IMG/VR virus record: IMGVR_UViG_2548876943_000023 | Length of the DNA stretch: 13,384 bases | Origin: a virus | Taxonomy: Duplodnaviria > Heunggongvirae > Uroviricota > Caudoviricetes | Strand: one strand, 5' to 3' | Shown: positions 9,797-13,384 of the stretch, piece by piece | Layout of the letters: every line of letters starts with the position of its first letter | Position numbering within the stretch: position 1 is the first letter of the stretch | Program-made: the position numbers and the translations under genes | Notes under the pieces: model-generated | What the model saw: the letters and a program-made list of their open reading frames with translations, nothing else | The model's database searches: none | What the model was told of the DNA's origin: nothing

Positions 9797-11614
9797 TTAA
9801 TTTTTGCTATCGCCATTAGTGACCGATACACATGATGGCATCCAGTCTTCTGATTCCTCCGTCAGTGTCACGTTTGAACGCAAACCGTGCTTCGTTTTCC
9901 GTTTCATATACTCCCTGCCATATTCCGCCATTGCCCCCGGCATATCTTTACCGAAGCGCGTCAGTGTTACAGGTTTACCAAACCCATGTGCCCTCATATA
10001 AGCCAGATAGGCATGATAGAGATACCTGCGTGGGCTGAATGGCACAATTTCAGCATTACCCACTAACAGGCCATCACACATTACCGACGCCATGAGATAG
10101 CCGCAGAAGTCCACCAGCGAATCCCCCTCTCGCTTTATCGCCAGTGCTTCTTCAGATTTCTGCTGCTCATATAACAGGCGTCTGGCTTCGTCCTGGTCAG
10201 CAAACCGTGTAAGCAGATGGCGAATCACTACCGCCAGCTCACCTTCTATTTTTTCCGCCAGCATTGGATCACGTTCGTTCTCCGGTACAACTTCCGAAAA
10301 ATTGAATATCACCCGACGACGTGAGATCCCCCCGCTGCGGTCACTGAATGACATAGCGTTATTGTTAACCGCCAGCACTACTGCCGGAATACGTGTTGAG
10401 TAGGGGGCTTTGTGTTTCGGGTCAATTGCCACCTTGTCACCGCCTGTAATAGCCTTAATCCCTGCCCCATCACCAGCGTAGCGGGTCATATCCGGCATGA
10501 TAATCAGCGAAAAGCCAACCACTAACGCGCGTTCCCTTGCATCTTCCAGCGCCTTCATGCTTGCCGATACTGTGTTGGCCTTACCCGCCAGCATGGTGCA
10601 AATCTCCGCCATCACGCTTTTACCACTTCCCCCTGGACCTGTTACCTCAATGAATAACTGCCAGTCGTACCGGTTCGCCAGCACCATGAATAATGCAGCC
10701 AGTACGCGATCCGCCTTGCGGTCATTCTCAGCCACCGAACGGCGTAACCACTTCCAGAAATTCGGCGCATGTGTTGCCAGCGTTTCCCCCTCTGCTGGTG
10801 GGCTGAAAGGTAATTCACTGGCAATTAACAACCAGTCGTTTTTGTTATGCTCCCGAAAATTACCTGTTCTGGTATCAAATACCCCGTTACTGAATCCAAT
10901 CAGGTTACGGGCTGTATTCCCCATTACAGGCAAACTTAACTTCATGGTATCGACCGCCGATTTAATGGCGTTCTGCGAATAGCTGATCTCCGCATCAATG
11001 AAAATCTGTGCCATAGCTCGCTGTAATTCTTTATCCTGTACTGGCTCCCATACAACGCCGTTGTAATGGTGAACAGTGTCAGAGTCAGCATGAATCGCCA
11101 GTTCACCGCCATAATGTGCCAGGAGAACTTCGCCGCGTTGACTTGCTCCCATCTGGTTAAGCGCCAGTGATGAAGCGTTATCGTCTTTTACCCGCTCTTT
11201 TTTCTTTACAGGCAGTTCAACTACCTTTTTCTTTTCCGCCAGCTCTGCCCGTTCACGTTCCAGATATTCGTGCCAGTTCTCCCGTTTCTGGCTGTGCATT
11301 CCTTCAGGATAATAATCAGCATCCCTGACACCTGCCGCTGCCAGTTTCTGCCCGATGGTATTAACAAGCACCGGACGCAATAACCCCGCCTGATAGAGAC
11401 GCACGCGATAGCGTCCGTCCGGTACGATTTGCAGGTTGTCCAGTTCGGCAAGTTGTTGCTCTCCAAGCCAGACAGGTGGCACGTTATCGCCTGCCAGTCG
11501 CCCGTCCTGTTCCTGCCACTGCTTCGCATGTGCCCACGCATCACTACCCGCAAAAATGATGACTTCCGTCATTTTGTCACGCGGCTGGTGTTTTAAATTT
11601 GGCGCTTTTTTCAT
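9797..11614 (-). CDS. Primase/helicase, P4-family (D5-like) replication protein
   Basis: About 605 aa from ATG at 11614 (MKKAPNLKHQ...). Walker A motif VTGPGGSGKS and the downstream layout are typical of phage/plasmid P4-family primases. GGAGAG Shine-Dalgarno. ATGA overlap with the upstream ORF. Confidence 0.85.
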   Translation of the reverse strand: MKKAPNLKHQPRDKMTEVIIFAGSDAWAHAKQWQEQDGRLAGDNVPPVWLGEQQLAELDNLQIVPDGRYRVRLYQAGLLRPVLVNTIGQKLAAAGVRDADYYPEGMHSQKRENWHEYLERERAELAEKKKVVELPVKKKERVKDDNASSLALNQMGASQRGEVLLAHYGGELAIHADSDTVHHYNGVVWEPVQDKELQRAMAQIFIDAEISYSQNAIKSAVDTMKLSLPVMGNTARNLIGFSNGVFDTRTGNFREHNKNDWLLIASELPFSPPAEGETLATHAPNFWKWLRRSVAENDRKADRVLAALFMVLANRYDWQLFIEVTGPGGSGKSVMAEICTMLAGKANTVSASMKALEDARERALVVGFSLIIMPDMTRYAGDGAGIKAITGGDKVAIDPKHKAPYSTRIPAVVLAVNNNAMSFSDRSGGISRRRVIFNFSEVVPENERDPMLAEKIEGELAVVIRHLLTRFADQDEARRLLYEQQKSEEALAIKREGDSLVDFCGYLMASVMCDGLLVGNAEIVPFSPRRYLYHAYLAYMRAHGFGKPVTLTRFGKDMPGAMAEYGREYMKRKTKHGLRSNVTLTEESEDWMPSCVSVTNGDSKN

Positions 11615-11910
11615 TTCTGCTCTCTCCACGCGGCAATCATGTTTTTCAGTTCCTGTAGTTTTTTATCAACATCCATACATGACACATGGTTATTTCTGGA
11701 AAGCGGGATTTCCCGCCTGAATCTGCTAATAAAGATCTCCACGTTCAGCGAACTATGAAATGAATAGCCATCACGAATAAAATACACACGGTCAAACATC
11801 AGTTCTTTTACCGTTACTCTGTTACCGTTCTTATCCAGATAAATAGCGCCGGGGATAATTTTGGGGTGTGCATAACCGCTGGCAGTCAAGCCAGATAAAT
11901 ATGTTCTCAT
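11611..11910 (-). CDS. Hypothetical protein (99 aa), translationally coupled to the primase
   Basis: ATG at 11910; its stop overlaps the primase start. Visibly lower GC than the primase. No family recognised. Confidence 0.55.
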   Translation of the reverse strand: MRTYLSGLTASGYAHPKIIPGAIYLDKNGNRVTVKELMFDRVYFIRDGYSFHSSLNVEIFISRFRREIPLSRNNHVSCMDVDKKLQELKNMIAAWREQK

Positions 11911-11916
11911 GATTAT

Positions 11917-12237
11917 TTATCCCCGATTTGAATCAGTATTCGCTTTCTTTATGGCATTTAATGCATCTGCGGCATTTTCAATGGTGCACCGTAACGAAAT
12001 ATCAAACTGCCCAAGCATTGCCAGTAACAAACCGATATTACCCATATCAATGCGCATAGCCTTTTCGTCATAGTCCTCATTTTCTGACGCATGCCACATC
12101 AGGCTACCAATTGACGCAATACCCATTGATATATTGTCAGTAGCCCCATCCGCAGCGGAATAAACCTTTTTAGCAATATCATGCTCACAGTTAAAATGCG
12201 GATTAATCAGGTACTGGTAATTTGACATATCAGGCAT
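11917..12237 (-). CDS. Hypothetical protein (106 aa)
   Basis: ATG at 12237 with an AGGGGGTG Shine-Dalgarno; 6 bp before the next ORF. No family recognised. Confidence 0.55.
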   Translation of the reverse strand: MPDMSNYQYLINPHFNCEHDIAKKVYSAADGATDNISMGIASIGSLMWHASENEDYDEKAMRIDMGNIGLLLAMLGQFDISLRCTIENAADALNAIKKANTDSNRG

Positions 12238-12433
12238 GGCACACCCCCTGACGAATACGGGCGGCGAATACCATCACGCAGCCAGCCGGGGATTGCTGGC
12301 GTGCTTCCTGTTCGCTGGTGGCCACGATGTGAATCACGCGCGGTTGTGCCGTGCTCAGGGCGATAAAACGCCAGATGAATTTATTCAGGTTGTGCGAGTC
12401 CCGCCCTTGCGGGTGTGTGGTATGATTTAACAT
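12230..12433 (-). CDS. Possible small protein (67 aa), first gene of the minus-strand early operon
   Basis: ATG at 12433 with a GAGGT Shine-Dalgarno; overlaps the next gene's start by 8 nt. It is the C-terminal part of a long non-protein-like ORF in the track, so it is uncertain. Confidence 0.3.
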   Translation of the reverse strand: MLNHTTHPQGRDSHNLNKFIWRFIALSTAQPRVIHIVATSEQEARQQSPAGCVMVFAARIRQGVCHA

Positions 12434-12529
12434 AGCTACCTCGATACTTCTGCTATCGTTGGTGGTTAGAAGCCCGGTTAGTGTTAGCGCACTGCCGGGT
12501 TTCGTCGTTTCTGCACCTTGCATCAACAA

Positions 12530-12584
12530 GGTGTTAAACACCAATTTAAGCCTAGGTGTTAAACACGTCAAGTGTTGAACACTT
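12530..12584. promoter_or_regulatory. Three palindromic operator-like sites in a divergent promoter region
   Basis: GGTGTTAAACACC (12530-12542), GTGTTAAACAC (12556-12566) and AAGTGTTGAACACTT (12570-12584). A promoter-like TTGAAC-N17-CATACT overlaps site 3. The region lies between the minus-strand operon start (12433) and the plus-strand small ORF (12633). Confidence 0.55.
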
Positions 12585-12632
12585 ATTTTTTTTCCTGCAT
12601 ACTGCATTTGTTTTTTGTAAGGAGTACACAAC

Positions 12633-12812
12633 ATGGCGACAAAAGCAGTAAACGCAAAATCACAAACAGTTGCGGCAAGGGTTCCGCATGAAGTTATGAA
12701 CAATGTTGAGGCGGTAAAAATGCCTGGTGAAAGTACAGGGCAGTTTGTAACAGCAGCATTAAAGCGAGAAGTTGAATACCGCCAGCGTCGCAAGGCCAAA
12801 GAGCAGGAGTAA
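12633..12812 (+). CDS. Small ribbon-helix-helix-like DNA-binding protein (59 aa), candidate repressor
   Basis: Not in the ORF track (under 60 aa). Strong Shine-Dalgarno AAGGAG 8 nt before ATG. Translation MATKAVNAKSQTVAARVPHEVMNNVEAVKMPGESTGQFVTAALKREVEYRQRRKAKEQE fits a strand-helix-G-helix RHH pattern. Confidence 0.55.
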   Translation: MATKAVNAKSQTVAARVPHEVMNNVEAVKMPGESTGQFVTAALKREVEYRQRRKAKEQE

Positions 12813-12869
12813 CCATCACCAGCGCCGTGGTGCGGTGAACTGTGGCGCACAGGGTTACAGGTATCTACG

Positions 12870-13049
12870 ATGACTGACAAATCATTAAAGAAATTATCCT
12901 CATCCAAGAAAAAACAACGCAAAAATGCGGTAAACGAACATGAACCGGAGAGATTCGCACCATGTGCGTTTATCCTTGAGAAGTACCTTAAAGAGTATTC
13001 TAGGAAAATACGCTCATTGCAGGCATGGCAGCGAATCGAGCCAGACTGA
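12870..13049 (+). CDS. Possible small Lys-rich protein (59 aa)
   Basis: ATG at 12870 with a weak AGGT Shine-Dalgarno. MTDKSLKKLSSSKKKQRKNAVNEHEPERFAPCAFILEKYLKEYSRKIRSLQAWQRIEPD. Uncertain. Confidence 0.3.
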   Translation: MTDKSLKKLSSSKKKQRKNAVNEHEPERFAPCAFILEKYLKEYSRKIRSLQAWQRIEPD

Positions 13050-13113
13050 TAGCATTGCCCACTAGCCGACAACCTGGTATTCTGGATATGCTCAAGTTTA
13101 GTGTTATGCCACT

Positions 13114-13141
13114 GGCGACCGCCCCCGGTCGCCTTTGTTTT
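13114..13141 (+). terminator. Rho-independent terminator ending the plus-strand small-ORF transcript
   Basis: GGCGACC-gccccc-GGTCGCC followed by TTTGTTTT. Confidence 0.7.
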
Positions 13142-13159
13142 ATGTGTCATAGCTCCCCC

Positions 13160-13384
13160 CTAGGCTGCCTTACCTGAATTAACGCGGTCACGGCTTTGCA
13201 CCCAGTCCATAACTTCGGAAAGCAACCAGCCTACAGAACGCCCCCCAAGATTACGGCGAGACGGAAAGCCCCCTTTCTTCTCCAGTTCGTAGCGTGTAGT
13301 ACGGCTGACGCCTGTTAACTTACGACATTCATCCTCACGAATTACGCGATCTGTTAGTGATTGAAATTGTGTATTTTGATTCAT
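13160..13384 (-). CDS. alpA: AlpA-family (excisionase-like, MerR-type HTH) transcriptional regulator
   Basis: 74 aa. The pattern LTGVSRTTRYELEKKGGFPSRRNLGGRSVGWLLSEVMDWVQSR is typical of AlpA/prophage regulatory proteins. The ATG is the last three bases of the window, so its promoter and any integrase lie outside. Confidence 0.85.
   Translation of the reverse strand: MNQNTQFQSLTDRVIREDECRKLTGVSRTTRYELEKKGGFPSRRNLGGRSVGWLLSEVMDWVQSRDRVNSGKAA

What the first reader, a model, noticed from the sequence alone, without database searches (positions are those of the whole stretch)
11611..12433. Three small, translationally coupled unknown ORFs ahead of the primase
ORFs of 67, 106 and 99 aa have overlapping or nearly abutting stop and start codons, and the last overlaps the primase start by ATGA. 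They look lower in GC than the primase and I recognise no family. Early-operon small proteins in satellites often mediate helper sensing or interference.
Basis: inference. Interest (0 to 1): 0.5.

Follow-up and report, generated by a model that had tools for sequence, protein, structure and literature searches.

The report
Antisense-gated Icd-like leader of satellite replication operon
The three small genes are real and chained to the primase gene, but the first is a known Icd/Kil-type toxic leader gene that appears to be gated by a previously unreported SymR-like antisense RNA, a possible missing "off switch" of Gram-negative phage satellites.

Summary
The window is an E. coli capsid-forming PICI (phage satellite). 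All genes of the finding lie on the minus strand. The three ORFs exist as described, and their overlaps are 8 nt, a 6-nt gap and ATGA.

Two of the three are not "unknown". ORF1 is an Icd-like protein, 40% identical to P1 Icd and related to P4 Kil. ORF3 is DUF4222. ORF2 belongs to a rare uncharacterised helical family. Only ORF2 and ORF3 are GC-poor.

New anatomy found here:
- A roughly 77-nt structured RNA lies on the opposite strand (12434-12516, +), exactly antisense to ORF1's Shine-Dalgarno sequence and 5' UTR.
- It is conserved in 50 distinct loci, with 17 of 24 pairs covarying and 58 G-U against 0 A-C cells. It matches E. coli SymR reciprocally.
- ORF1 is the 3' end of a conserved 306-codon open frame that starts 9 nt after alpA, like P4 eta/kil.

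Best model: the antisense RNA blocks ORF1 translation and, through translational coupling, blocks ORF2, ORF3 and the primase. AlpA-driven translation of the long frame bypasses the block.

ORF3 is a Tudor-like β-barrel and is always the last gene before the replicase, across three replicase families. No expression data were available. I classify this as a new variant of a known kind.

The parts
12230..12433 (-). ORF1, 67 aa, Icd/Kil-like; first cistron after the internal promoter
   Evidence: NF033153 E 4.6e-20. BLASTP against P1 Icd gives 40% identity over 43 aa, E 2e-7. An iterated HMM hits the P4 Kil region at 2e-17. dN/dS is 0.14-0.65.
11917..12237 (-). ORF2, 106 aa, rare uncharacterised family, predicted helical hairpin
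   Evidence: phrog_15327 only. 21 hits among 1.8e9 representative proteins. AF2 pLDDT is 61 with two long helices. dN/dS is 0.2-0.3. Present in 474 of 5426 E. coli genomes.
11611..11910 (-). ORF3, 99 aa, DUF4222: small Tudor/SH3-like β-barrel plus a C-terminal helix; overlaps the primase start by ATGA
9797..11614 (-). Replicase ('DNA primase family protein', 605 aa from the ATG at 11614)
   Evidence: D5_N + DUF5906 + Pox_D5. RefSeq annotation.
12434..12516 (+). SymR-like cis-antisense RNA, about 75-80 nt: two hairpins plus a U-rich tail, complementary to ORF1's SD and 5' UTR
   Evidence: Rfam symR 33.6 bits, E 5e-4. Own covariance model R1 scores 76 bits here and 29.4 bits on E. coli K-12 symR at its annotated 5' end. 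Covariation. 58 G-U against 0 A-C cells. Folding z-score -4.5.
12418..12426 (+). Extended -10 (TGgTATGAT) of the antisense RNA, inside ORF1 codons 3-6
   Evidence: Read from the sequence. A -10-like hexamer ends 7 nt before the RNA 5' end in all 46 satellite loci listed and in the E. coli K-12 symR locus.
12543..12571 (-). Internal sigma-70-like promoter of the ORF1-ORF2-ORF3-primase operon (TTGACG-17-TAAATT)
   Evidence: Consensus scan. An equivalent TTGAC(G) lies upstream of the leader in relatives.
12531..12582 (.). Three GTGTT(A/G)AACAC palindromes bracketing that promoter (putative operators)
   Evidence: Read from the sequence. Element-specific equivalents occur in relatives.
12230..13150 (-). 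306-codon open frame ('Eta-like') that starts 9 nt after the alpA stop with SD GGGGGAG and ends as ORF1
   Evidence: 0 stops in 239 upstream codons against 14 and 18 in the other two frames; shuffle p = 0.0016 for the parts not opposite a + strand ORF. The upstream frame is open for at least 100 codons in 35 of 45 loci, against 0 and 3 loci for the other frames.
13160..13384 (-). alpA (activator and master inducer of Gram-negative PICIs)
   Evidence: PF05930 E 4.8e-16. Literature.
12633..12812 (+). Divergent YlcI/YnfO-family gene, antisense inside the long frame; candidate repressor
   Evidence: NF041551 E 2e-16. Present in 41 related loci.

Best explanation
The three ORFs are the promoter-proximal cistrons of the replication operon of a capsid-forming PICI. 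They are not one functional trio.

ORF1 is an Icd/Kil-type small protein. Its homologues P1 Icd and P4 Kil are toxic or inhibit cell division, and they serve as the translational entry point of their operons.

A constitutively transcribed cis-antisense RNA of about 77 nt, related to SymR, is encoded on the opposite strand. Its promoter lies inside ORF1's first codons, and it pairs with ORF1's Shine-Dalgarno sequence and 5' UTR.

In the quiescent island this RNA blocks ORF1 translation. The divergent YlcI/YnfO protein probably adds to the block by acting at three operators. ORF2, ORF3 and the primase start by overlap or abutment with the preceding cistron, so the whole chain stays silent.

On induction the helper phage switches on alpA. 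Ribosomes leaving alpA re-initiate 9 nt downstream on a 306-codon frame that runs in phase through the promoter and leader into ORF1. ORF1's own ribosome-binding site is then no longer needed, and translation is delivered to ORF2, ORF3 and the primase. This is the P4 eta/kil logic.

ORF3 (DUF4222, Tudor-like β-barrel plus helix) most likely acts with the replicase. ORF2 is a swappable helical accessory protein of unknown role.

Shown here: gene identities, overlaps, the RNA's conservation, structure and strand, the conservation of the long frame, and the positional rule for ORF3.

Inferred: that the RNA is expressed, the repression, the bypass, the toxicity of ORF1, and the partner of ORF3.
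For: - ORF1 identity.
- P1 annotation: icd is 'required for expression of ant', overlaps ant1 by ATGA, and has C4 target sites just 5' of it.
- P4 eta/kil/CI logic as summarised in PMC10111431.
- Coupling junctions. The motif SD-ATG-(1-5 nt)-stop at the 3' end of every ORF1 homologue, including P4 kil, whatever gene follows.
- Antisense RNA, sequence matches: Rfam symR hit starting 1 nt 5' of the ORF1 ATG. The R1 model finds it in about 30 loci not used to build the model, always opposite the operon, and in E. coli K-12 symR at 9836, its annotated start.
- Antisense RNA, structure: 96.6% of cells paired, 17 of 24 pairs with compensatory change, slid controls 35-46%. 58 G-U against 0 A-C cells fixes the strand.
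- Antisense RNA, transcription signals: U-rich tail after the 3' hairpin on that strand only. A -10 hexamer 7 nt from the 5' end in all loci, as in SymR.
- Long frame.
- ORF3 position before D5-type, DUF927 and RepA-family replicases with a 4-nt overlap.
- Fold of ORF3.
Against: - There are no transcript or protein data.
- The Rfam score (33.6) is below the family's gathering score (61), and E-values from my model are rough.
- The related loci are not phylogenetically independent.
- The long frame is short or shifted in 10 of 45 loci.
- Whether elongating ribosomes or co-transcriptional translation really defeat a roughly 75-bp antisense duplex is untested.
- In Xenorhabdus and Photorhabdus the small ORF is only 26-53 aa and degenerate, so a toxin role is not universal.
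- YlcI/YnfO repression of the internal promoter could be the main control, with the RNA only a fine-tuner or an addiction module.
Confidence: 0.5

Rival explanations
1. One reading: the small proteins sense or interfere with the helper phage, or with other phages. [quoted passage not shown]
For: - In E. coli ECOR61 an Icd-like protein with an N-terminal extension, together with six linked genes including a primase, causes programmed cell death when a phage accessory gene is expressed.
- ORF2 and ORF3 lie in the variable 'dynamic zone' of PICIs.
- They are GC-poor and patchily distributed, as accessory or defence cargo often is.
Against: - No PADLOC match for any of them.
- The prototype cf-PICI does not reduce helper titres.
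- ORF3's strict position before the replicase across three replicase families fits a replication role better.
- The conserved RNA, leader and long frame are not explained by this view.
Confidence: 0.2
2. ORF1 plus the antisense RNA is simply a type I toxin-antitoxin (addiction or stabilisation) module of the island. It has no role in gating the downstream genes. ORF2, ORF3 and the primase are translated independently from their own Shine-Dalgarno sites.
For: - The arrangement is the same as symE/symR.
- Each downstream start has its own G-rich SD.
- ORF1 homologues are toxic in P1 and P4.
Against: - The SD-ATG-stop junction at the ORF1 3' end is conserved whatever gene follows, even where the small ORF is degenerate (26-53 aa).
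- The conserved long in-frame extension from alpA has no purpose in a plain toxin-antitoxin module.
- In P1 the same gene is required for expression of the next gene.
Confidence: 0.15
3. ORF2 and ORF3 are routine replication accessory subunits of the SF3 helicase/primase, such as a loader, an origin-binding partner or a primase-complementing partner. ORF1 is only a leader peptide whose product is irrelevant.
For: - ORF3 always abuts the replicase.
- The 605-aa replicase lacks a recognisable primase catalytic domain.
- Small ORF1 homologues are degenerate in Xenorhabdus.
Against: - No homology of ORF2 or ORF3 to known loaders or replication factors.
- ORF2 and ORF3 are absent from most related islands that keep the same replicase.
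- ORF1's Icd domain is under purifying selection in Enterobacteriaceae and is 40% identical to P1 Icd.
Confidence: 0.15

Closest known systems
Phage P1 immI operon: C4 RNA - icd - ant1/ant2
   Same: - Homologous small protein (40% identity over 43 aa).
- It is the first cistron and overlaps the next gene by ATGA.
- Its ribosome-binding region is the target of a small RNA.
- Its translation is needed for expression of the downstream gene.
   Different: - C4 is made from the same strand and acts through short a/b loops. Here the RNA is a fully complementary cis-antisense transcript, and no C4-family match is found.
- The downstream genes here are ORF2, ORF3 and the primase, not an antirepressor.
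Satellite phage P4 left operon: vis - eta/kil - CI RNA - epsilon - orf151 - orf106 - alpha
   Same: - Same gene order: AlpA-family gene, then a long frame ending in an Icd/Kil-like segment, then small variable genes, then the primase.
- kil is nested in eta.
- eta is coupled to the alpA homologue, and its translation allows read-through.
- The same SD-start-stop junction follows kil.
   Different: - P4 immunity uses the sense-strand CI RNA (Rfam C4, 74.9 bits at L002 8420-8507) and an isrK-like element. The window has neither.
- ORF2 and ORF3 are unrelated to epsilon, orf151 and orf106.
- A YlcI/YnfO gene lies antisense inside the long frame here.
E. coli SymE/SymR type I toxin-antitoxin locus (Kawano et al. 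2007, PMC1891008)
   Same: - A roughly 77-nt RNA with two hairpins.
[quoted passage not shown]
- Its promoter lies inside the target ORF, with the -10 hexamer 7 nt from the start.
- Covariance-model matches are reciprocal.
   Different: - The target is an Icd-like protein heading a replication operon, not the AbrB-fold SymE.
- The Rfam score is below the gathering threshold.
- In the window's subclass the RNA starts at -1 of the ATG rather than at +6.
- There is no LexA-type promoter.
ECOR61 prophage Icd-like programmed-cell-death system (bioRxiv 10.1101/2023.04.06.535777)
   Same: An Icd-like protein, described as having a long N-terminal extension, is linked to a primase and small genes.
   Different: I could not compare sequences, and the trigger and function are untested here.
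UvrD/PcrA C-terminal Tudor domain and CarD N-terminal domain (RNA-polymerase-binding β-barrels)
   Different: - Sequence identity is only 8-15%.
- ORF3 is a stand-alone 99-aa protein with an extra C-terminal helix.
- The fold is very common, so no function follows from it.

Membership tests
Icd-like protein (NCBIfam NF033153; P1 Icd) | Profile match above the curated cut-off | tested here: met
   71.4 bits against a cut-off of 25.
Icd-like protein (NCBIfam NF033153; P1 Icd) | Pairwise homology to the founding protein, P1 Icd | tested here: met
   40% identity over 43 aa, E 2e-7.
Icd-like protein (NCBIfam NF033153; P1 Icd) | Inhibits host cell division or is toxic on expression | not testable with these tools
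   Needs expression in E. coli.
Icd-like protein (NCBIfam NF033153; P1 Icd) | Controlled by a C4/CI-family RNA | tested here: not met
   No RF01695 match in the window even at E <= 10. The P4 positive control scores 74.9 bits.
P4 eta/kil nested genes | The short toxic ORF is the 3' end of a long frame that begins upstream of the internal promoter, next to the alpA/vis homologue | tested here: met
   306-codon frame starting 9 nt after alpA. Conserved in 35 of 45 loci.
P4 eta/kil nested genes | Sequence homology of the short ORF to P4 Kil | tested here: met
   BLASTP is weak (28% identity, E 0.01). The iterated HMM gives 2e-17 on the C-terminus of the P4 frame.
P4 eta/kil nested genes | Translation of the long frame prevents termination or repression | not testable with these tools
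   Needs reporter fusions.
SymR RNA (Rfam RF01809) | Score at or above Rfam's gathering threshold | tested here: not met
   33.6 bits against 61.
SymR RNA (Rfam RF01809) | Reciprocal similarity in sequence and structure | tested here: met
   A model built only from satellite RNAs hits K-12 symR end to end at its annotated 5' end: 29.4 bits, E 8e-6 in 20 kb.
SymR RNA (Rfam RF01809) | Two-hairpin structure supported by covariation, on the strand opposite the target | tested here: met
SymR RNA (Rfam RF01809) | Encoded opposite the target's 5' end, with its promoter inside the target ORF | tested here: met
   Geometry and -10 spacing. This is sequence evidence only.
SymR RNA (Rfam RF01809) | The target gene is symE | tested here: not met
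   The target is an Icd-like gene.
SymR RNA (Rfam RF01809) | The RNA is expressed and represses target translation | not testable with these tools
   No transcriptome data available.
DUF4222 (Pfam PF13973) | Profile match above the gathering score | tested here: met
   61.1 bits against 27.
Capsid-forming PICI (EcCIEDL933 type) | int, alpA and pri, plus its own capsid, protease, portal, connector, HNH, TerS and TerL in about 15 kb, with no tail genes | tested here: met
   RefSeq annotation of a 99.7%-identical copy lying between yphF and yphG. Family description.
   Pfam, NCBIfam, PHROGs and PDB sequence searches were negative. For ORF3 the fold search gave only a generic Tudor/SH3 fold.
Known anti-phage defence systems (PADLOC) | Any component match | tested here: not met
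   0 families for all seven proteins.

The most novel reading that the evidence does not exclude
AlpA-type phage satellites (PICIs, cf-PICIs, helper-embedded PICIs and the Xenorhabdus/Photorhabdus P4-like elements) share a previously undescribed immunity device.

A SymR-family cis-antisense RNA closes the translational entry (an Icd/Kil-like leader cistron) of the replication operon. A conserved 'translate-through' frame launched from alpA opens it.

This would be the missing repressor function of Gram-negative PICIs. It would also imply that the chromosomal symE/symR locus borrowed its RNA module from such elements, or the reverse.
Probability: 0.35. Interest if true: 0.75.

Novelty: new variant of a known kind. 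Interest (0 to 1): 0.6.

Why it matters

A conserved antisense RNA sitting exactly on the entry of the replication operon gives a concrete hypothesis. It can be tested with a two-nucleotide silent promoter mutation.

The region is present in about 30% of complete E. coli genomes (1610 of 5426).

The finding also links three classic systems into one design with interchangeable RNA parts: P1 c4-icd-ant, P4 CI-kil/eta and symE/symR.

It assigns a positional rule to DUF4222, which is the last cistron before the replicase whatever the replicase family.

Tried and rejected
- Rfam at gathering thresholds on the whole window found nothing. There is no C4/CI or isrK RNA here, although both are found in the P4 control, so P4-type immunity was rejected.
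- The phage database holds only one weak relative, a Klebsiella cf-PICI deposited as a phage.
- ORF2 against P4 ORF106 (same length, 106 aa) gave no similarity. ORF3 against P4 ORF151 gave none either.
- PDB sequence searches for all three ORFs gave only noise.
- PADLOC gave nothing.
- The AF2 model of ORF2 from a shallow alignment has pLDDT 61, too weak for a fold search, so none was run. The remote ORF2 homologues could not be used for structure prediction or context look-up under the tool rules.
- The BFVD fold search for ORF3 gave only unnamed small β-barrels.
- The N-terminal 239 residues of the long frame match no family, and I do not regard them as a conserved protein.
- Literature searches found no paper that links SymR or an antisense RNA with PICIs or P4-like elements.
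Full report
**Context.** The window matches E. coli chromosomes at up to 99.7% identity. In strain A65EC the copy is a 15-kb island between yphF and yphG. It carries int, a DUF6387 gene, alpA, a divergent YlcI/YnfO gene, an Icd-like gene, a hypothetical gene, a DUF4222 gene, a primase-family gene and ssb. It also carries a complete head and packaging set (capsid, protease, portal, connector, HNH, TerS, TerL) but no tail genes. This is the architecture of capsid-forming PICIs such as EcCIEDL933, whose induction requires alpA. All genes of the finding are on the minus strand.

**Observation.**
- ORF1 (12230..12433, 67 aa), ORF2 (11917..12237, 106 aa) and ORF3 (11611..11910, 99 aa) exist as described.
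- ORF1 and ORF2 overlap by 8 nt (ATGCCTGA). ORF2 and ORF3 are 6 nt apart. ORF3 and the primase share ATGA. Each start has a G-rich Shine-Dalgarno sequence.
- They are annotated in RefSeq and show dN/dS of 0.14-0.65 between E. coli alleles.
- GC content is 57.8% for ORF1, 41.1% for ORF2, 41.3% for ORF3 and 50.9% for the primase. The 'lower GC' remark therefore holds for ORF2 and ORF3 only.

**Identities.**
- ORF1 matches the NCBIfam Icd-like model and is 40% identical to P1 Icd over 43 residues.
- The PHROG label 'transcriptional repressor' most likely traces back to the old protein annotation of the P4 cI region, which is labelled that way in the P4 record. This link is my inference.
- ORF3 is DUF4222.
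- ORF2 has no Pfam or NCBIfam match. An exhaustive profile search of 1.8 billion representative proteins gave only 21 hits, about ten of them proteins of roughly 100 aa at 25-41% identity. A shallow-alignment AF2 model (pLDDT 61) shows two long helices.
- None of the three has a relative of solved structure by sequence, and none matches a PADLOC defence model.

**Comparative anatomy.** I fetched 72 loci that encode relatives of the replicase and scanned their six-frame ORFs with iterated HMMs.
- The Icd-like segment is the most widespread of the three (20 loci).
- ORF2 (11 loci) and ORF3 (7 loci) occur independently of each other. They occur together only in the window type and in L009.
- In 5426 complete E. 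coli genomes, ORF2 is present in 474, ORF3 in 472 and the ORF1-plus-leader region in 1610.
- ORF3 homologues are always the last gene before the replicase, with a 4-nt overlap. This holds for D5-type primases, DUF927 proteins and a RepA-family helicase.

**The leader and the antisense RNA.**
- A permissive Rfam scan gave one notable match: SymR, on the plus strand at 12434..12506. That position begins one base 5' of ORF1's start codon and is complementary to its SD (33.6 bits, E 5e-4, below the gathering score of 61).
- The same region is conserved upstream of Icd-like ORFs in diverged elements.
- An alignment of 15 such sequences in antisense orientation folds into a short 5' stem enclosing a hairpin, followed by a 14-bp 3' hairpin and a U-rich tail.
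- In that alignment 96.7% of cells are paired, against about 40% when partners are slid, and 11 pairs show compensatory change. There are 58 G-U cells and no A-C cell, so the structure belongs to the strand opposite ORF1.
- A covariance model built from these 15 sequences found the element in about 30 further loci not used to build it (Xenorhabdus, Photorhabdus, Gilliamella and helper-embedded PICIs). It always lies opposite the operon.
- The same model found E. coli K-12 SymR itself, aligned end to end from its annotated first base.
- On the 50-sequence alignment, 17 of 24 pairs covary.
- A -10-like hexamer ends 7 nt before the RNA 5' end in every locus, as in symR. In the window it is an extended -10, TGgTATGAT, inside ORF1 codons 3-6.
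- The window RNA folds with a z-score of -4.5.
- P4-type immunity is absent. Rfam finds C4 (the CI RNA) and isrK in P4 but not here.

**The long frame.**
- ORF1's frame is open for 239 further codons upstream, to an ATG at 13150. That ATG lies 9 nt after the alpA stop and is preceded by GGGGGAG.
- The other two frames carry 14 and 18 stops. For the 118 codons not opposite a plus-strand ORF, only 0.16% of shuffles stay open.
- Across 45 loci the upstream frame is open for a median of 174 codons, with at least 100 codons in 35 loci. The medians for the other frames are 8 and 4 codons. The open frame usually reaches the alpA stop.
- Its N-terminal part matches no family and is poorly conserved. 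It is the openness that is kept.
- This mirrors P4. There, kil is the 3' end of eta, eta is coupled to the alpA homologue vis, and eta translation allows read-through.
- The 3' end of every ORF1 homologue carries the motif SD-ATG-(1-5 nt)-stop for the next gene, whatever that gene is. This holds even where the small ORF has shrunk to 26-53 degenerate codons.

**Mechanism proposed.** See the best explanation. In brief, the antisense RNA closes ORF1's ribosome-binding site and, through coupling, closes the whole chain down to the primase. Probable repression of the internal promoter by YlcI/YnfO adds to this; the promoter is at 12571..12543 and is bracketed by three GTGTTAAACAC palindromes. AlpA-driven translation of the long frame bypasses the block. 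ORF1's product probably arrests division, by homology with P1 Icd and P4 Kil. ORF3 probably works with the replicase. ORF2's role is unknown. The regulatory steps are inferred, because no expression data exist here.

**Novelty.** Icd-like leader cistrons under RNA control are known in P1 and P4, and SymR is known at symE. The combination is not in Rfam 15 and was not found in the searchable literature. That combination is a SymR-like cis-antisense RNA opposite an Icd-like leader, nested in an eta-like frame, at the head of satellite replication operons.

Noticed in passing
window 9797..11614 (-): The 605-aa 'DNA primase family protein' has D5_N, an SF3-helicase domain (DUF5906) and Pox_D5, but no recognisable primase catalytic domain. 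Residues 1-139 hit only phrog_2850. Xenorhabdus relatives are about 806 aa with a P4-alpha-like zinc-finger/Toprim N-terminus. Where priming activity comes from is open.
   Followed up: partly
window 12531-12541, 12556-12566, 12572-12582: Three GTGTT(A/G)AACAC palindromes bracket the -35 and -10 of the internal promoter. Relatives carry different, element-specific palindromes at the same places. These are likely operators of the divergent YlcI/YnfO protein, which would make that protein a candidate PICI repressor.
   Followed up: partly
window 12870..13049 (+) and 13114..13133 (+): A second plus-strand 59-aa ORF lies downstream of ylcI. It is not annotated in the RefSeq copy and matches no family. 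It is followed by a strong terminator-like hairpin (GGCGACCGCCCCCGGTCGCC followed by Ts) just inside the start of the long minus-strand frame.
   Followed up: no
L006 3343-3410, L007 2631-2699: The Rfam int-alpA RNA motif (RF02996) lies between int and alpA in related islands. The window ends at the alpA start codon, so its presence here cannot be seen.
   Followed up: no
L077-L084 (E. coli and Salmonella): DUF4222-containing islands are inserted inside phage capsid genes, with Phage_capsid or Phage_cap_E fragments on both flanks. These are helper-embedded PICIs, and they carry the same RNA, Icd-like gene, small-ORF chain and replicase layout.
   Followed up: partly
L053 6875-8287 (Photorhabdus temperata): An ORF2-like N-terminal segment is fused in frame to the helicase part of the replicase (470 aa). 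This is either a decay product or a hint that ORF2 works with the replicase.
   Followed up: no
L076 9836-9912 (E. coli K-12 symR): SymR shares length, two-hairpin architecture, loop sequence (GUGUU..GCAC) and promoter spacing with the satellite RNAs. This suggests common ancestry of the symE/symR regulatory module and the satellite leaders.
   Followed up: partly
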